Shown here in pieces: positions 4,560 through 14,388 of a stretch of DNA of 14,388 nt. Under the pieces are notes generated by a model. The model saw only the letters and a list, made by a program, of their open reading frames with translations. It had not been told where the DNA came from and ran no database searches. The DNA is from a virus (lineage: Duplodnaviria; Heunggongvirae; Uroviricota; Caudoviricetes). The stretch lies in the IMG/VR virus record IMGVR_UViG_2671180636_000001; one strand, written 5' to 3'. The first letter of the stretch is position 1, and every line of letters starts with the position of its first letter. A program made the translations under genes and the position numbers.

Positions 4560-5194
4560 CGCTTTATTACCATTCTCAGTTGATGCTGCAGCGCATAGCN
4601 NNNNNNNNNNNNNNNNNNNNNNNNNNNNNNTTCGGAAGACGTTCACGCCGTATCCGTTCAATATTCTGTTTAAACGCCGTGGTCAGCGGCACCGCCATCG
4701 GGATTTTCACCACATCAATGGGGTAACGGTTTTTCCCGGCCACACGCTGCATAACATGCCACCGGCCGTTTTTCAGTTGCTGAATNNNNNNNNNNNNNNN
4801 NNNNNNNNNNNNNNNNNNNNNNNNNNNNNNNNNNNNNNNNNNNNNNNNNNNNNNNNNNNNNNNNNNNNNNNNNNNNNNNNNNNNNNNNNNNNNNNNNNNN
4901 NNNNNNNNNNNNNNNNNNNNNNNNNNNNNNNNNNNNNNNNNNNNNNNNNNNNNNNNNNNNNNNNNNNNNNNNNNNNNNNNNNNNNNNNNNNNNNNNNNNN
5001 NNNNNNNNNNNNNNNNNNNNNNNNNNNNNNNNNNNNNNNNNNNNNNNNNNNNNNNNNNNNNNNNNNNNNNNNNNNNNNNNNNNNNNNNNNNNNNNNNNNN
5101 NNNNNNNNNNNNNNNNNNNNNNNNNNNNNNNNNNNNNNNNNNNNNNNNNNNNNNNNNNGTTTTCAACGGCCTGCTCAAGACCTTTTATGGCCAT
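4556..5194 (-). CDS. Z: Tail completion protein (lambda gpZ-like); interrupted by masked N runs at 4600-4630 and 4786-5158
   Basis: N-terminus MAIKGLEQAVEN (start 5192-5194) and unmasked internal/C-terminal segments (IQQLKNGRWHVMQRVAGKNRYPIDVVKIPMAVPLTTAFKQNIERIRRERLP ... stop overlapping the U start) match lambda gpZ; true length uncertain because the N runs do not conserve length or frame. Confidence 0.8.
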
Positions 5195-5205
5195 ACATCC
5201 CCCTT

Positions 5206-5580
5206 TCAGCGGCGACGGTTAACGGCAGGNNNNNNNNNNNNNNNNNNNNNNNNNNNNNNNNNNNNAAGCCAGAGATGACAACTTCCGCCATCATCCGGCG
5301 AAACCCGATCTACCCAGAAATTTTCCTCACCGATGGTCAGCGTGTCTCCACGCCGCAGCTGCCGCACCTCATCAGTCCGGACAAACAGGGACGGGCTGGA
5401 GCCTTCAACGCGCACGCCCTGTCCGGCATAGCTGATATTTTCAGGGTCATCAAAAACACCACGTATCACCGCACCTGACTGCTCACCGGATGTCATGGTG
5501 GCTGACGTTCCCATGTACCCGCGTATCGTTTCATCGGCGCGGGCAATGGCAGCATCGAACAGGTTATCGAAATCAGCCAC
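5206..5580 (-). CDS. FII: Head-tail joining protein (lambda gpFII-like); contains masked run 5230-5265
   Basis: Translation MADFDNLFDAAIARADETIRGYMGTSAT...CHLWL[masked]PAVNRRR recognised as lambda gpFII; 11-nt spacer to the Z start as in lambda. Confidence 0.85.
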   Translation of the reverse strand: MADFDNLFDAAIARADETIRGYMGTSATMTSGEQSGAVIRGVFDDPENISYAGQGVRVEGSSPSLFVRTDEVRQLRRGDTLTIGEENFWVDRVSPDDGGSCHLWLXXXXXXXXXXXXPAVNRRR

Positions 5581-8060: not shown

Positions 8061-8768
8061 CCGGGACTGCAATGTTTCCCGGACATCATCCGGTAGATGG
8101 CTGTAGGGGTTGCCATCCACCTTATGGCTGCCGCTGTAAATCAGCGTGATTTCNNNNNNNNNNNNNNNNNNNNNNNNNNNNNNNNNNNNNNNNNNNNNNN
8201 NNNNNNNNNNNNNNNNNNNNNNNNNNNNNNNNNNNNNNNNNNNNNNNNNNNNNNNNNNNNNNNNNNNNNNNNNNNNNNNNNNNNNNNNNNNNNNNNNNNN
8301 NNNNNNNNNNNNNNNNNNNNNNNNNNNNNNNNNNNNNNNNNNNNNNNNNNNNNNNNNNNNNNNNNNNNNNNNNNNNGCCACCATTCCGCCCGGTGTGTCN
8401 NNNNNNNNNNNNNNNNNNNNNNNNNNNNNNNNNNNNNNNNNNNNNNNNNNNNNNNNNNNNNNNNNNNNNNNNNNNNNNNNNNNNNNNNNNNNNNNNNNNN
8501 NNNNNNNNNNNNNNNNNNNNNNNNNNNNNNNNNNNNNNNNNNNNNNNNNNNNNNNNNNNNNNNNNNNNNNNNNNNNNNNNNNNNNNNNNNNNNNNNNNNN
8601 NNNNNNNNNNNNNNNNNNNNNNNNNNNNNNNNNNNNNNNNNNNNNNNNNNNNNNNNNNNNNNNNNNNNNNNNNNNNNNNNNNNNNNNNNNNNNNNNNNNN
8701 NNNNNNNNNNNNNNNNNNNNNNNNNNNNNNNNNNNNNNNNNNNNNNNNNNNNNNNNNNNNNNNNNNNN

Positions 8769-8774
<6 letters not shown>
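7455..8774 (-). CDS. C: Head maturation protease / minor capsid protein (lambda gpC-like); 5' part lies in masked runs (8154-8376, 8400-8839), start coordinate approximate
   Basis: Unmasked C-terminal 230 aa (EITLIYSGSHKVDGNPYSHLPDDVRETLQSRMDATRRMF...NDLLNTPV) and the 8377-8399 island (DTPGGMV) lie in one frame ending at 7455; start inferred from lambda gene length and overlap with B, cannot be read directly. Confidence 0.7.
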
Positions 8775-12535
<3,761 letters not shown>

Positions 12536-12561
<26 letters not shown>

Positions 12562-13081
12562 TCAGCAACCCCGGTATCAGTTCATCCAGCGCGGCTGCTT
12601 TGTTCATGGCTTTGATGATATCCCGTTTCAGGAAATCAACATGTCGGTTTTCCAGTTCCGGAAAACGCCGCTGCACCGACAGGGGGATCCCGTCGAGAAT
12701 ACTGGCAATTTCACCTGCGATCCGCGACAGCACGAAAGTACAGAATGCGGTTTCCACCACTTCAGCGGAGTCTCTGGCATTTTTCAGCTCCTGTGCGTCG
12801 GCCTGCGCACGCGTAAGTCGATGGCGTTCGTACTCAATAGTCCCTGGCTGGAGATCTGTCTCGCTGGCCTGCCGCAGTTCTTCAACTTCCCGGCGCAGCT
12901 TTTCGTTCTCAATTTCAGCATCCCTTTCGGCATACCATCTTATAACGGCGGCAGAGTCATAAAGCACCTCATTACCCTTGCCACCGCCTCGCAGAACGGG
13001 CATTCCCTGTTCCTGCCAGTTCTGAATGGTACGGATACTCGCACCGAAAATGTCAGCCAGCTGCTTTTTGTTGACTTCCAT
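12536..13081 (-). CDS. Nu1: Terminase small subunit (lambda Nu1-like), 181 aa
   Basis: 181-aa ORF (MEVNKKQLADIFGASIRTIQNWQEQGMPVLRGGGKGNEVLYDS...) recognised as lambda Nu1 with N-terminal winged-HTH; overlaps the start of A by 26 nt; lies immediately next to the cosB R sites. Confidence 0.93.
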
Positions 13082-13105
13082 TGTTCATTCCACGGACAAA
13101 AACAG

Positions 13106-13218
13106 AGAAAGGAAACGACAGAGGCCAAAAAGCCCGTTTTCAGCACCTGTCGTTTCCTTTCTTTTCAGGGGGTGTTTTAAATAAAAACATTAGGTTACGG
13201 CGAAGAAGAACGGAAACG
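13106..13218 (-). promoter_or_regulatory. cosB terminase-binding region with three R-site 12-mers (R3 13106-13117, R2 13151-13162 inverted, R1 13207-13218)
   Basis: Three copies of CGTTTCC(T/G)TTCT read directly: minus-strand copies at 13106-13117 and 13207-13218, plus-strand copy at 13151-13162; this matches the known orientation pattern of lambda R3, R2 and R1 between Nu1 and cosN. Confidence 0.85.
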
Positions 13219-13258
13219 CCTTAAACCGGAAAATTGTCATAAATAGCGAAAACCCGCG

Positions 13259-13270
13259 CGCCTTCCGCCC
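13259..13270. other. cosN (cohesive-end / terminase nicking site), 12-nt core; 5'-GGGCGGAAGGCG-3' read on the minus strand
   Basis: Flanks (..AAAACCCGCG | 12-mer | CGTAACCTGT..) match the lambda cos junction context from memory; the 12-mer itself matches lambda (GGGCGGCGACCT) only in its first six bases. Confidence 0.7.
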
Positions 13271-13305
13271 CGTAACCTGTCGGATCGCCGGAAAGGACCC
13301 GCAAA

Positions 13306-13322
13306 ATGATAATAATTATCAT
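13306..13322. promoter_or_regulatory. 17-bp perfect palindrome ATGATAAT-A-ATTATCAT between cosN and the right-end cassette; candidate protein-binding site
   Basis: Perfect 8-bp inverted repeat around a central base, read directly; function unassigned (cosQ-adjacent element or operator). Confidence 0.4.
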
Positions 13323-13469
13323 CTACATGTCACAACGTGCATCTACGCCATCAAACCACGTCAAATAATCAATTATGACGCAGGTATCGTATTAATTGAT
13401 CTGCATCAACTTAACGTAAAAACAACTTCAGACAATACAAATCAGCGACACTGAATACAGGGCAACCTC

Positions 13470-13703
13470 ATGTCAACGAAGAACAGAACCCGCAGAACAA
13501 CAACCCGCAACATCCGCTTTCCTAACCAAATGATTGAACAAATTAACATCGCTCTTGTTCAAAAAGGGTCCGGGAATTTCTCAGCCTGGGTCATTGAAGC
13601 CTGCCGCCGGAGACTGTGCTCAGAAAAAAGAGTTTCGCCTGAAGCAAACAAAGAAAAGAGTGACATTACTGAATTGCTCAGAAAACAGGTTAGACCAGAT
13701 TGA
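13470..13703 (+). CDS. Small basic ribbon-helix-helix-like DNA-binding protein, 77 aa (possibly DUF3950/YlcI-like; family assignment from memory, unverified)
   Basis: ORF with Arg/Thr-rich basic N-terminus, then a strand-helix-GxS/N loop-helix pattern typical of RHH (Arc/MetJ/CopG) folds (NIRFP / NQMIEQINIALVQ / KGSGN / FSAWVIEACRRRL); transcribed opposite to the structural operon; weak Shine-Dalgarno. Confidence 0.6.
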   Translation: MSTKNRTRRTTTRNIRFPNQMIEQINIALVQKGSGNFSAWVIEACRRRLCSEKRVSPEANKEKSDITELLRKQVRPD

Positions 13704-13760
13704 AGCAATTTAGATAATCGTGCAGACTACGCCCCCTCATATCACATGGAAGGTACTACA

Positions 13761-14171
13761 ATGGCTCAGGTTGCCATTTTTAAACAAATATTCGATAAAG
13801 TGCGAAATAATTTAAACTATCACTGGTTTTATTCTGAACTAAAACGTCACAATGTCTCACATTACATTTACTATTTAGCCACAGAGAATATTCATCTTGT
13901 TCTTGAAAACGATAATACGGTTTTAATAAAAGGACAGGGTAAGGTTGTAAATGTAAGATTTTCAAAAAATAAATGCCTTATAGAAGCCACCTTAAAAGGA
14001 TTCAAATCAGGAGAGTTATCATTTTACGAATACAGGAAAAATCTTGCTACAGCAGGGGTTTTCAGATGGATTACAAATATCCACGAAAACAAAAGGTATT
14101 ACTATACCTTTGATAATTCATTACTCTTTACTGAGAACATACAGAACACTACACAAATATTTCCGCACTAA
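13761..14171 (+). CDS. Hypothetical protein, 136 aa from the SD-supported ATG (141 aa from the upstream ATG at 13746); AT-rich, Tyr/Asn/Lys-rich; possibly DUF1398/YbcV-like (tentative)
   Basis: Clean ORF to a stop at 14169-14171; GGAAGG Shine-Dalgarno 7 nt upstream of ATG 13761; composition visibly AT-rich against the GC-rich structural genes; no motif recognised. Confidence 0.6.
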
Positions 14172-14179
14172 ATCATAAC

Positions 14180-14207
14180 GTCCGGTTTCTTCCGTGCCAG
14201 AACCGGA
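14180..14207 (+). terminator. Possible stem-loop downstream of the 136-aa ORF (8-bp stem GTCCGGTT/AACCGGAC, 12-nt loop); weak terminator candidate
   Basis: Inverted repeat read directly, 9 nt after the stop codon; no U-tract follows, so intrinsic-terminator function is uncertain. Confidence 0.3.
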
Positions 14208-14388
14208 CTCGCTGGCATGATGAAATATGTGTACCCGGNNNNNNNNNNNNNNNNNNNNNNNNNNNTGTACCCGGTAACCCCGGTGTGCATCGTTTTTGAT
14301 TATTCCCGCACACTCGCGCAGAAGGAGTTCCCCGTCGGGCTACGGTCTCTGTTAATACGGGAATACGGCGACGATTGGATTTGCCCCT

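What the first reader, a model, noticed from the sequence alone, without database searches (positions are those of the whole stretch)
13470..14171. AT-rich two-gene cassette next to cos: RHH-like DNA-binding protein plus 136-aa protein of unknown function
Two co-oriented plus-strand genes lie just beyond cos, opposite in orientation to the packaging and structural operon and visibly lower in GC than the rest of the window. The upstream one has the strand-helix-loop-helix signature of ribbon-helix-helix regulators and antitoxins; the downstream one carries no motif I can assign. Small RHH gene followed by a larger partner is the usual layout of toxin-antitoxin and some phage-defence or regulatory modules, and the late-region end of lambdoid prophages is a known site for accessory cargo. 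Caveats: the genes are about 57 nt apart rather than overlapping, a 17-bp palindrome upstream (13306-13322) is only a candidate operator, and related genes probably exist in other lambdoid prophages as conserved genes of unknown function (DUF3950/DUF1398-like), so this may be known-but-uncharacterised rather than new.
Basis: partly seen in the sequence, partly recalled or inferred. Interest (0 to 1): 0.6.

Follow-up and report, generated by a model that had tools for sequence, protein, structure and literature searches.

The report
Known prophage gene pair ynfO–ydfO
The two genes are real but already catalogued: they match the uncharacterised ynfO–ydfO pair that sits next to the packaging site of lambda-like prophages in most E. 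coli, and nothing here supports a toxin–antitoxin or defence module.

Summary
Both ORFs exist exactly as described: 13470-13703 (77 aa) and 13761-14171 (136 aa). They lie on the + strand with a 57-nt gap, just past cos, opposite to the packaging operon, and are AT-rich (44% and 31% GC against 56.5%).

They are DUF3950 (YlcI/YnfO) and DUF1398, in the same layout as E. coli K-12 Qin nohA–ynfO–ydfO. YdfO has a solved structure (2HH8, about 75% identical). The segment matches DNA in 4480 of 5426 complete E. coli genomes and is present in phage lambda.

- **RHH fold:** plausible for the 77-aa protein but not statistically proven.
- **Toxin–antitoxin or defence reading:** not supported. DUF3950 occurs without DUF1398 in Stx phages, and DUF1398 occurs alone as ycgX. 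Near-identical YnfO pairs with DUF1398 alleles only 76% identical. YdfO overexpression is reported as protective. PADLOC finds nothing.
- **The 17-bp palindrome:** it is a Fur box. The K-12 equivalent binds Fur in a gel shift. A perfect FNR box lies 75 bp further on, and FNR binds there in K-12.

Best reading: a dispensable accessory ("moron") cassette under host regulators, with unknown protein function.

New lead: in phage satellites, DUF3950 is fused to a small-terminase DNA-binding domain.

The parts
12536..13081 (-). Context: small terminase subunit Nu1 (NohA/NohD homologue), first gene of the packaging operon
   Evidence: ORF. RefSeq annotates the homologue as 'terminase small subunit'. 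It is 99-100% identical to the E. coli Nu1/NohA-type genes in loci L004-L010.
13259..13270 (.). cosN equivalent (the 12-nt cohesive end). This is a variant: GGGCGGAAGGCG on the lambda strand, against lambda GGGCGGCGACCT
   Evidence: Alignment with lambda and other lambdoid cos regions. The variant occurs in 8 of 73 sequences matched (fetched loci plus the window itself).
13294..13300 (.). cosQ equivalent (AGGACCC, the complement of lambda GGGTCCT)
   Evidence: The position is invariant in the alignment. Calling it cosQ rests on my own knowledge of lambda cos.
13302..13322 (.). Fur box. The 19-mer at 13302-13320 matches the consensus GATAATGATAATCATTATC at 16 of 19 positions.
   Evidence: One match in the window against 0.00 expected from 200 shuffles. 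The homologous K-12 'nohA -233' site (22.3 bits) shifted with Fur in a gel assay and was cloned from in-vivo-selected Fur-binding fragments; the 'nohB' site scores 25.3 bits (PMC2189734). The minus-strand site GTGACA-16-TATCAT matches 10 of 12.
13368..13400 (.). Imperfect inverted repeat ATCAATTATGACG / CGTATTAATTGAT. It is a candidate operator of unknown binder and overlaps the left half of the FNR box
   Evidence: the repeat finder pair I2, 13-nt arms, 85% complementary. The stretch is conserved in lambdoid homologues. No binding data exist.
13396..13409 (.). Perfect FNR box TTGATCTGCATCAA, centred 67.5 nt upstream of the ynfO ATG
   Evidence: One exact match in the window against 0.01 expected. 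The sequence is identical in 101 of 103 related sequences. The identical K-12 site is bound by FNR in ChIP-chip and EMSA (PMC1802558) and in ChIP-seq (PMC3688515).
13431..13436 (+). Inferred -10 element (GACAAT) of a rightward promoter for ynfO. It would place the FNR box at about -41.5, the class II geometry
   Evidence: Inference from the sequence only. The generic sigma-70 scan did not call a + strand promoter here.
13470..13703 (+). ynfO homologue: 77 aa, basic (pI 10.9), DUF3950 / YlcI-YnfO family, probably an RHH-like DNA-binding protein
   Evidence: Pfam PF13132 at E 2e-20; NCBIfam NF041551 at 35.2 bits (cutoff 30); phrog_949. It is 96% identical to the E. coli YlcI/YnfO cluster P0001-P0003, and K-12 ynfO has the same length and layout. 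AF2 and Foldseek results. pI.
13748..13753 (+). Shine-Dalgarno-like GGAAGG, 7 nt before the ydfO ATG at 13761
   Evidence: Read directly from the sequence.
13761..14171 (+). ydfO homologue: 136 aa, DUF1398, soluble (no hydrophobic segment), with the fold of PDB 2HH8
   Evidence: Pfam PF07166 at E 3e-43. PDB 2hh8 (E. coli YdfO) at E 2.9e-67 over residues 1-135. RefSeq calls the homologue 'DUF1398 domain-containing protein'. The highest 19-residue Kyte-Doolittle window is 0.39.
14185..14210 (.). Hairpin just downstream of ydfO (TCCGGTT..AACCGGA) with no T-run. Possibly the end of the cassette; function unknown
   Evidence: Read from the sequence. The terminator scan did not call it.

Best explanation
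This is the conserved cos-proximal accessory ('moron') cassette of lambda-like prophages, and it matches E. coli K-12 Qin ynfO–ydfO in layout.

**Gene 1 (YnfO, DUF3950).** It encodes a small, very basic protein that most likely forms a ribbon-helix-helix-type dimer and binds DNA. It probably acts as a transcriptional regulator.

**Gene 2 (YdfO, DUF1398).** It encodes a soluble cytoplasmic protein with the orphan fold of PDB 2HH8. It is dispensable for phage growth, non-toxic, and stress-responsive in K-12.

**Regulation.** The cassette is read against the late/packaging operon. Its upstream region, between cosQ and the ynfO start codon, is nearly invariant and binds two host regulators: Fur (box at 13302-13320) and FNR (box at 13396-13409). 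I infer that in a lysogen ynfO, and probably ydfO with it, is transcribed rightwards from an FNR-dependent promoter with the box at about -41.5. I also infer that Fur gates the region under iron-replete conditions. Expression would then track anaerobic, iron-poor conditions such as the gut.

**Relationship of the two genes.** They are neighbours of convenience rather than an obligate pair, and they are not a toxin–antitoxin system.

**Shown here or in cited work:** gene identity, families, distribution, separability of the two genes, Fur and FNR binding at the homologous K-12 sites, dispensability of the lambda DUF1398 gene.

**Inferred:** the RHH fold and DNA binding of YnfO, the direction and promoter served by FNR and Fur, expression in lysogens, and any host benefit.
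For: **Families.**

**Matching layout in K-12.** ynfO (234 nt), a 57-nt gap, then ydfO (411 nt), next to nohA. The DLP12/lambda variant reads ylcI, ybcW (opposite strand), ybcV, bor.

**Structure.** YdfO is solved as 2HH8; E = 2.9e-67 to the window protein.

**Prevalence.** DNA matching the query segment is found in 4480 of 5426 complete E. coli genomes, and 2637 hold at least 80% of it contiguously. In 79 of the 80 closest viral contigs, DUF1398 lies 56-59 nt downstream of ynfO (one contig: 138 nt).

**Moron features.** GC is 0.31-0.44 against 0.565. The genes are counter-oriented to the late genes. Lambdap78 (DUF1398) is non-essential in lambda (PMC10695390).

**RHH-like fold.** AF2 gives coil 14-18, H19-32 and H37-54. 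The top Foldseek hits include Arc, NikR, CdbA, ParD2, MazE9, CopA and AtaR. The pI is 10.9, with a basic N-terminal arm.

**Satellite context.** DUF3950 genes occupy the slot between alpA and the primase operon, divergent from it, next to repeated TGGTACGTACCA palindromes. This is a repressor-like position.

**Host regulators.** The Fur box matches 16 of 19 with 0 expected, and the K-12 homologue was gel-shifted and came from in-vivo-selected Fur-binding fragments. The FNR box is perfect, with 0.01 expected. The K-12 homologue is bound in ChIP-chip, EMSA and ChIP-seq, and the authors propose FNR activation masked by Fur. The FNR box is identical in 101 of 103 related sequences. The spacer is nearly invariant even where Nu1 is only 36% identical.

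**Stress response and lack of toxicity.** ydfO rose 116-fold after ionic-liquid shock, and its overexpression is reported to raise oxidative-stress resistance (PMC4077768). PdhR loss lowers ybcV about 10-fold (PMC7660256).
Against: - No statistically significant RHH match: Foldseek best E = 0.48; hhalign against Arc gives probability 1.8%.
- The AF2 model is a monomer of moderate confidence (pLDDT 67).
- The generic promoter scan found no + strand sigma-70 site upstream of ynfO. Its best hit there is a leftward promoter-like site (10 of 12) overlapping the Fur box and pointing at cos and Nu1.
- All published work assigns the Fur and FNR sites to nohA, not ynfO. A nohA::lacZ fusion showed low activity and little FNR effect. 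The gene that these sites control is therefore unresolved.
- In Stx phages the DUF3950 gene keeps its coding sequence but lacks the Fur and FNR boxes, so host control is not a universal property of the family.
- In one data set ybcV went down under copper stress while iron-uptake genes went up.
- No terminator was detected after ydfO.
Confidence: 0.65

Rival explanations
1. The pair is a type II toxin–antitoxin or abortive-infection/defence module. YnfO would be the RHH antitoxin and autorepressor, and YdfO the toxin or effector.
For: A small RHH-like gene sits upstream of a larger gene on the same strand with a short 57-nt gap. The location is an accessory-cargo site with low GC. In 79 of the 80 closest viral contigs the two genes are adjacent.
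Against: - DUF3950 is found in 155 phage records but DUF1398 in only 43.
- Stx phages have DUF3950 alone at the same position.
- K-12 ycgX is a DUF1398 gene with no DUF3950 neighbour.
- Lambda and DLP12 have an opposite-strand gene and about 560 bp between the two.
- YnfO proteins 97-100% identical to the window's pair with DUF1398 alleles of either 100% or 76% identity, so there is no co-variation.
- The YnfO C-terminal tail is replaced in lambda-type genes beyond residue 55.
- PADLOC finds no hit for YnfO and only a chance-level one for YdfO (Csx23, E = 0.023).
- No known toxin family or fold was matched.
- YdfO overexpression is reported as protective rather than toxic, and ybcV is among the ASKA-library overexpression genes in a glycogen screen (PMC2853380, listed but not read in detail).
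Confidence: 0.06
2. YnfO (DUF3950) belongs functionally to the packaging boundary rather than to YdfO. It would be a small DNA-binding protein that acts at or near cos, or on late/packaging gene expression. Possible roles include modulating terminase access, excluding other cos phages, or mediating helper–satellite cross-talk. DUF1398 would be unrelated cargo that landed beside it.
For: - DUF3950 keeps the same counter-oriented position immediately upstream of the small-terminase gene in phages with non-homologous packaging systems: lambda Nu1/A and the Stx-phage HNH + Terminase_2 + TerL set. In the Stx phages, homology starts exactly at the DUF3950 ATG.
- Two distant homologues, P0213 and P0180, are fusions of DUF3950 with the N-terminal DNA-binding part of Terminase_2. 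For P0213 both domains pass the Pfam cutoffs (28.6/25 and 45.4/26.1). For P0180 the scores are 28.9/25 and 29.1/26.1.
- The fused C-terminal part aligns to the small-terminase DNA-binding domain 2cmp, though weakly (E = 0.54).
- The fusions sit in PICI-like satellites, and YlcI/YnfO genes are listed in cf-PICIs of Enterobacter (PMC13612085).
- K-12 cryptic prophages retain nohA/nohD–cos–DUF3950 although most morphogenesis genes are lost.
Against: - There is no experimental link to packaging.
- I know of no report that lambda needs this ORF. The reference record J02459 does not even annotate it.
- No cos-like DNA was found next to the satellite copies.
- There is no sequence similarity to Rpp or other solved terminase-interacting proteins.
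- The fusion could simply combine two DNA-binding modules in a satellite regulator.
Confidence: 0.2
3. YdfO is a virion or envelope component, as database labels suggest ('head protein' in PHROGs and RefSeq phage records; 'putative envelope protein' in lambda records).
For: phrog_413 is labelled 'head protein'. Lambda records carry 'putative envelope protein' or 'head protein'.
Against: - There is no signal peptide or hydrophobic segment; the highest 19-residue Kyte-Doolittle window is 0.39.
- The gene is oriented against the late structural operon.
- It is non-essential for lambda plaque formation.
- It is absent from most phages that carry DUF3950 and share the lysis region.
- A chromosomal paralogue, ycgX, lies outside any annotated prophage.
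- The labels look like propagated annotation with no experimental source found.
Confidence: 0.02

Closest known systems
E. coli K-12 Qin prophage ynfO (b4533) – ydfO (b1549), next to nohA
   Same: The order, strand relations and gene lengths (234 and 411 nt) are the same, as is the 57-nt spacer. The cos-to-ATG spacer with its Fur and FNR boxes is almost identical. The closest E. coli YnfO cluster is 96% identical, and the solved E. coli YdfO (2HH8) is about 75% identical.
   Different: The window carries the other DUF1398 allele, 100% identical to copies in E. albertii, Escherichia sp. and E. coli 582. It sits in an apparently intact lambda-like structural region rather than a decayed cryptic prophage. 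Its cosN 12-mer is a variant.
Phage lambda right end / DLP12: ylcI-like ORF – lambdap79 (ybcW) – lambdap78 (ybcV) – bor
   Same: The same two families lie in the same orientation between the lysis genes and cos. DNA identity is 88%. Lambdap78 is non-essential.
   Different: Lambda has an insertion of about 560 bp carrying an opposite-strand gene between the two. Its DUF3950 protein diverges after residue 55 (64 aa) and has no annotated feature in J02459.
Ribbon-helix-helix regulators (Arc/MetJ/CopG superfamily, including RHH antitoxins such as ParD, MazE9 and AtaR)
   Same: The size is similar and the predicted order is strand-like segment, helix, loop, helix. The IRFP...NFSAWV pattern fits, there is a basic N-terminal arm, and most of the nearest structural neighbours are RHH proteins.
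   Different: No significant sequence or structure score was obtained. Dimerisation and DNA binding are untested. No cognate toxin is evident.
Lambda morons bor and lom (lysogen-expressed accessory genes in the late region)
   Same: Low GC, an insertion between conserved late functions, dispensability and proximity to bor in lambda. The features of bor and lom themselves are from my own knowledge.
   Different: Bor and Lom are envelope proteins with known phenotypes. YnfO and YdfO are cytoplasmic, and no phenotype is tied to a mechanism.
Listeria TERi system (the prophage protein TerI blocks the terminase of invading phages)
   Same: Conceptual analogue only: a small prophage-encoded accessory protein that acts on DNA packaging (bioRxiv 10.1101/2025.02.27.640495).
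   Different: No homology was tested or seen, the host and phage group differ, and no packaging phenotype is known for YnfO or YdfO.

Membership tests
DUF3950 / YlcI-YnfO family (Pfam PF13132, NCBIfam NF041551) | Profile match above the curated cutoff | tested here: met
   PF13132 scores 72.8 bits (cutoff 25, E 2e-20) over the full 30-position model. NF041551 scores 35.2 bits (cutoff 30).
DUF1398 (Pfam PF07166; YdfO/YbcV/YcgX) | Profile match above the curated cutoff and similarity to the solved member 2HH8 | tested here: met
Ribbon-helix-helix (RHH) DNA-binding superfamily | N-terminal beta-strand followed by two helices (beta-alpha-alpha) | tested here: inconclusive
   The AF2 monomer (pLDDT 67) has extended residues 14-18, then H19-32 and H37-54. 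Most of the top 50 Foldseek PDB hits are RHH proteins, but E is at least 0.48. hhalign against Arc puts the strand and helix 1 in the right register, but probability is 1.8%.
Ribbon-helix-helix (RHH) DNA-binding superfamily | Obligate dimer that forms a two-stranded antiparallel ribbon inserting into the DNA major groove | not testable with these tools
   Only single-chain prediction was available, and there are no binding data.
Type II toxin–antitoxin module | The two genes co-occur as an obligate pair | tested here: not met
   155 phage records carry DUF3950 against 43 with DUF1398. Stx phages have DUF3950 alone, and ycgX is DUF1398 alone.
Type II toxin–antitoxin module | The downstream protein belongs to a toxin family or is growth-inhibitory | tested here: not met
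   No toxin family was found in Pfam, NCBIfam or PADLOC. No toxin-like fold appeared above noise. The literature reports that YdfO overexpression increases oxidative-stress resistance. Toxicity was not measured here.
Type II toxin–antitoxin module | Tightly coupled operon with a co-varying antitoxin C-terminus and toxin | tested here: not met
   The gap is 57 nt here, and lambda and DLP12 have about 560 bp with an opposite-strand gene. Near-identical YnfO is paired with DUF1398 alleles of 100% or 76% identity.
Known anti-phage defence systems (PADLOC-DB v2) | Match to a defence-system protein model | tested here: not met
   YnfO has no hit. YdfO has only Csx23 at E = 0.023 and 12.7 bits, which is chance level.
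Phage 'moron' (independently expressed accessory gene in the late region) | Atypical base composition and insertion between conserved phage modules | tested here: met
   GC is 0.31-0.44 against 0.565. The genes lie between the lysis genes and cos and are variably present among related phages.
Phage 'moron' (independently expressed accessory gene in the late region) | Dispensable for lytic growth | tested here: met
   From the literature: lambdap78 is non-essential by CRISPRi and earlier genetics (PMC10695390). No data exist for the DUF3950 ORF.
Phage 'moron' (independently expressed accessory gene in the late region) | Own promoter and terminator, with expression from the repressed prophage | tested here: inconclusive
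   The upstream region binds FNR and Fur in K-12, and ydfO and ybcV transcripts respond to stress and to PdhR in K-12. However, no + strand promoter or terminator was called by the scan, and no transcription start is known.
Fur box | Match to the 19-bp consensus plus demonstrated Fur binding | tested here: met
   The match is 16 of 19 at 13302-13320, with 0 expected. Binding was shown for the K-12 homologue, which differs at two positions, not for this exact sequence.
FNR site | TTGAT-N4-ATCAA plus demonstrated FNR binding | tested here: met
   A perfect match lies at 13396-13409. The identical K-12 sequence TTGATCTGCATCAA (printed on the other strand) is bound in ChIP-chip, EMSA and ChIP-seq.

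The most novel reading that the evidence does not exclude
DUF3950 proteins would be a previously unrecognised class of small RHH regulators tied to the packaging boundary of cos phages and exploited by their satellites. In lambdoid prophages, YnfO would be produced from an FNR-activated, Fur-gated promoter that earlier work credited to nohA. It would act on DNA near cos or on late/packaging expression. Satellites would carry their own copies, some fused to a small-terminase DNA-binding domain, to control or hijack the same step. YdfO would then be an anaerobiosis- and iron-responsive lysogenic-conversion protein with a new fold and function.
Probability: 0.15. Interest if true: 0.6.

Novelty: already known. 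Interest (0 to 1): 0.25.

Why it matters
As found, it matters little: these are catalogued y-genes present in most E. coli and in phage lambda.

Three modest points follow from the work.

- **Regulatory sites may be credited to the wrong gene.** The Fur and FNR sites long assigned to the cryptic-prophage gene nohA lie in the divergent region shared with ynfO. One study lists the target as 'nohA/ydfO', and none considered ynfO. These sites may in fact control ynfO–ydfO. That would make the cassette an oxygen- and iron-responsive prophage function in a gut bacterium, and reporter fusions could test it directly.
- **DUF3950 tracks the packaging boundary.** It keeps its position across unrelated terminase systems and is fused to a small-terminase DNA-binding domain in satellites. 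This gives an orphan family a concrete hypothesis.
- **Database labels look unfounded.** 'Head protein' and 'putative envelope protein' for DUF1398 appear to have no experimental basis.

Tried and rejected
- **Toxin–antitoxin or defence reading.** Rejected on distribution, lack of co-variation, absence of toxin or defence profiles, and literature reports of non-toxicity.
- **Sequence proof of RHH.** Nothing significant came from phmmer or a profile against PDB sequences, or from hhalign against Arc and NikR.
- **Translational read-through fusion.** ynfO and ydfO are in the same frame, separated by a single TGA, and 233-aa 'fusion' proteins exist in databases. These have W at the TGA, so they are gene calls made with the wrong genetic code. 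The spacer is 56 or 58-59 nt in many relatives, so the shared frame is not conserved. Rejected.
- **Apparent homologues in unrelated taxa.** Hits in Nanosynbacter, Kitasatospora, Flavobacterium and others, mostly on contigs of about 3.5 kb or at contig ends, carry lambda-type sequence at identities typical of lambda. I read them as lambda control-DNA contamination; they were not compared with lambda directly.
- **cos-like DNA next to the satellite DUF3950 genes.** None found.
- **Known RNA families in 12900-14388.** Only chance miRNA-model hits on the cosB hairpin.
- **Copper-stress paper as support for Fur co-regulation.** ybcV was among the down-regulated genes, so it gives no support.
- **'Phages produce persisters' paper.** Its nohA/nohD entries are amino-acid changes in a sequencing table and have no bearing on this question.
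- **Profile scan of viral contigs.** It returned only near-identical loci, so it did not widen the context survey.
Full report
**1. Observation**

The window ends with the left end of a lambda-like packaging and structural operon on the minus strand. Nu1 lies at 12536-13081, with the large terminase subunit and head genes further left.

To the right of Nu1 the alignment with lambda places several features:
- the cosB-side sequences;
- the cosN equivalent at 13259-13270;
- cosQ at 13294-13300.

A longer reading of the second ORF from 13746 lacks a ribosome-binding site, whereas GGAAGG lies 7 nt before the ATG at 13761.

GC falls from 0.565 in the structural region to 0.444 in the first gene and 0.314 in the second. 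The 17-bp palindrome at 13306-13322 is present.

**2. Identity**

The 77-aa protein is a DUF3950 / YlcI-YnfO family member: Pfam E = 2e-20, NCBIfam above its cutoff, and phrog_949. The 136-aa protein is DUF1398: Pfam E = 3e-43 across the full model. It is about 75% identical to E. coli YdfO, whose NMR structure is PDB 2HH8.

The K-12 reference shows the same arrangement in the Qin cryptic prophage. It reads nohA, then a 388-bp spacer, ynfO (234 nt), a 57-nt gap and ydfO (411 nt).

DLP12 and phage lambda carry the sister arrangement: ylcI, ybcW (lambdap79, opposite strand), ybcV (lambdap78), bor. In lambda the DUF3950 ORF is present, with 94.5% identity over residues 1-55, but J02459 has no annotated feature there.

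The 1139-bp segment running from cos through ydfO matches DNA in 4480 of 5426 complete E. coli genomes. In 2637 of them at least 80% of it is contiguous.

**3. Is the first protein RHH-like?**

A full HMMER scan of 1.84 billion representatives found only 108 relatives, so the family is narrow. Many of those are frameshifted lambda control reads.

The genuine divergent members share [KR]xIRFPxxLIExI...NFSAWV[IL][ED]AC. An AF2 model built on 20 of them reached pLDDT 67. It has an extended segment at residues 14-18, then helices at 19-32 and 37-54.

Foldseek against the PDB gave no significant hit (best E = 0.48). However, most of the top 50 are RHH proteins: Arc, NikR, CdbA, ParD2, MazE9, CopA(SO), AtaR, TacA and MatP. 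hhalign against Arc aligned the strand and first helix in the correct register but without significance.

The protein is very basic, with pI 10.9 and an N-terminal arm of pI about 12. I regard an RHH-type DNA-binding dimer as likely but unproven.

**4. Is it a two-gene module (toxin–antitoxin or defence)?**

Several independent lines argue against it.

- **Distribution.** tblastn finds DUF3950 in 155 phage records and DUF1398 in only 43.
- **DUF3950 alone.** In Stx-converting phages the DUF3950 gene stands alone and counter-oriented, between the KilA-N/lysis genes and an HNH–Terminase_2–TerL packaging set unrelated to lambda Nu1/A. DNA homology to the window begins precisely at its ATG.
- **DUF1398 alone.** K-12 ycgX has no DUF3950 neighbour.
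- **No co-variation.** Among the 80 viral contigs with the closest YnfO (97-100% identical), 79 have DUF1398 downstream. It comes in two alleles, about 100% and about 76% identical to the window protein, so the partners do not co-vary.
- **Interrupted pair.** Lambda and DLP12 have about 560 bp and an opposite-strand gene between the two.
- **No defence or toxin signal.** PADLOC has nothing. No toxin family or fold appears.
- **Not toxic.** The literature reports that YdfO overexpression raises oxidative-stress resistance (PMC4077768). The lambda DUF1398 gene is non-essential (PMC10695390).

The two genes are frequent neighbours, not an obligate pair.

**5. What the palindrome and the spacer are**

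The stretch between cosQ and the ynfO ATG is almost invariant among lambdoid phages. This holds even where Nu1 is only 36% identical.

None is expected by chance. The homologous K-12 site, 'nohA, -233', scores 22.3 bits. It was shifted by Fur in a gel assay and had been cloned earlier from in-vivo-selected Fur-binding fragments. The DLP12 copy, 'nohB', scores 25.3 bits (PMC2189734).

*FNR box.* A perfect box, TTGATCTGCATCAA, lies 75 bp further right at 13396-13409, with 0.01 expected. It is identical in 101 of 103 related sequences. The identical K-12 site is bound by FNR in ChIP-chip and EMSA (PMC1802558) and in ChIP-seq. The ChIP-seq authors placed 'nohA' among operons where FNR activation is proposed to be masked by Fur repression (PMC3688515).

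*Which gene is controlled?* One study lists the target as 'nohA/ydfO', and the others name nohA only. None considered ynfO. The only reporter tested faced nohA and was weak and FNR-independent.

From the sequence I infer a rightward class II arrangement. The FNR box centre is at 13402.5, GACAAT lies at 13431-13436, and the start would be near 13444, 26 nt before the ynfO ATG. This is an inference: the generic promoter scan did not call it. The same scan found a leftward promoter-like site (10 of 12) whose -10 lies inside the Fur box. The direction or directions served remain open.

**6. DUF1398**

No function can be derived.
- The protein has no hydrophobic segment, so the labels 'envelope protein' and 'head protein' are unsupported.
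- In K-12, ydfO rose 116-fold after ionic-liquid shock.
- ybcV falls about 10-fold in a pdhR mutant, and PdhR sites are reported at ybcV/ybcW and in ydfO.
- ybcV was up in a sabinene-adapted strain and down under copper stress.

**7.

Two distant DUF3950 proteins, P0213 (120 aa) and P0180 (129 aa), are fusions with the N-terminal DNA-binding part of the Terminase_2 small subunit. Both domains pass the Pfam cutoffs in both proteins, only marginally for Terminase_2 in P0180. The fused part aligns to the solved small-terminase DNA-binding domain 2cmp, though weakly (E = 0.54).

They lie in PICI-like satellites. The gene order there is integrase, an AlpA-like gene, then one or two plus-strand DUF3950 genes divergent from a primase operon. 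In L042 and L043 a separate Terminase_2 gene and a faint capsid-like gene follow.

The divergent spacer holds repeated TGGTACGTACCA palindromes. In L042 the satellite lies beside a truncated small-terminase gene of a lambdoid prophage that has its own DUF3950 gene. YlcI/YnfO genes are also listed in Enterobacter cf-PICIs (PMC13612085).

Taken with the constant position of DUF3950 in front of unrelated packaging modules, this suggests that DUF3950 belongs functionally to the packaging/late boundary or to helper–satellite regulation. I keep this as the main rival, at about 0.2.

**8. Verdict**

The feature is real and already known: E. coli ynfO–ydfO and the lambda right-end ORFs, function uncharacterised. 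It is best read as a dispensable, host-regulated accessory cassette whose two genes are separable. The toxin–antitoxin or defence idea is not supported. The candidate operator is a documented Fur box.

Interest is low. The residual value lies in re-assigning the Fur and FNR sites to ynfO–ydfO and in the DUF3950–terminase-domain fusion in satellites. Both are testable.

Noticed in passing
window 13302-13322: The 'candidate operator' palindrome is a Fur box, matching the consensus at 16 of 19 positions. The homologous K-12 sites, published under nohA and nohB, bind Fur. The box also overlaps the -10 of a strong leftward promoter-like site (GTGACA-16-TATCAT) that points at cos and Nu1.
   Followed up: yes
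window 13396-13409: A perfect FNR box, TTGATCTGCATCAA, lies 67.5 nt upstream of the ynfO ATG and is identical in 101 of 103 related sequences. FNR binding is published for the K-12 copy but credited to nohA; only the nohA-facing promoter was ever tested.
   Followed up: yes
window 13259-13270: The cohesive-end 12-mer differs from lambda at 5 positions (GGGCGGAAGGCG against GGGCGGCGACCT), while both flanks are nearly identical. This variant occurs in 8 of 73 sequences matched (fetched loci plus the window itself), including E. coli 582.
   Followed up: partly
window 13701-13763: ynfO and ydfO are in the same reading frame, separated by a single TGA. Public 233-aa 'fusion' proteins (P0234, 761 members) have W at that codon, so they are gene calls made with a TGA=Trp code. 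The spacer is 56 or 58-59 nt in many relatives, so the shared frame is not conserved.
   Followed up: yes
loci L003, L011-L038 (genome contigs): The cassette appears in assemblies of unrelated taxa such as Nanosynbacter, Kitasatospora, Flavobacterium and Cohnella. The hits are mostly on contigs of about 3.5 kb or at contig ends, at identities typical of lambda. This looks like contamination by lambda control DNA, possibly the sequencing spike-in amplicon of the lambda right end. The same source floods the protein databases with frameshifted variants.
   Followed up: partly
L042 5590-6363; L043-L046: Phage satellites carry one or two DUF3950 genes between alpA and the primase operon. One of them is fused to the N-terminal DNA-binding part of a Terminase_2 small subunit. 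The divergent spacer (L042 5445-5589) contains repeated TGGTACGTACCA palindromes.
   Followed up: partly
L042 6400-8900: The satellite's integrase end abuts a 61-aa Terminase_2 fragment, an HNH gene and a DUF3950 gene of a lambdoid prophage. The satellite appears to be embedded in the helper's small-terminase gene, as described for helper-embedded satellites.
   Followed up: no
lambda J02459 48139-48303 (complement): The reference lambda record has no annotated feature over its DUF3950 (ylcI-like) ORF, although the ORF is conserved and is annotated in other lambda records.
   Followed up: partly
window 13761-14171 and database labels: DUF1398 proteins are labelled 'head protein' (PHROG 413, RefSeq phage records) or 'putative envelope protein'. 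The protein has no hydrophobic segment, is encoded against the late operon, and is non-essential. The labels look like propagated errors.
   Followed up: partly
window 4600-5265, 8154-9173, 9844-9859, 11357-11365, 14239-14265: Runs of N (9 to 440 bases) interrupt the structural genes and the region just after ydfO. ORF calls crossing them are unreliable, and composition dips there are artefacts.
   Followed up: no
window 13100-13167: A long inverted repeat lies on the cosB side between Nu1 and cosN (aaaggaaacgacag...cgtttcctttc). It draws chance hits to miRNA models in Rfam. It probably belongs to the terminase-binding region.
   Followed up: no
lambda lambdap79 (ybcW), PMC10695390: CRISPRi scored lambdap79 as essential although genetics says it is not. 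The gene is co-oriented with the late transcript that must cross cos, so a dCas9 roadblock with polar effects on Nu1/A is a likely explanation.
   Followed up: no
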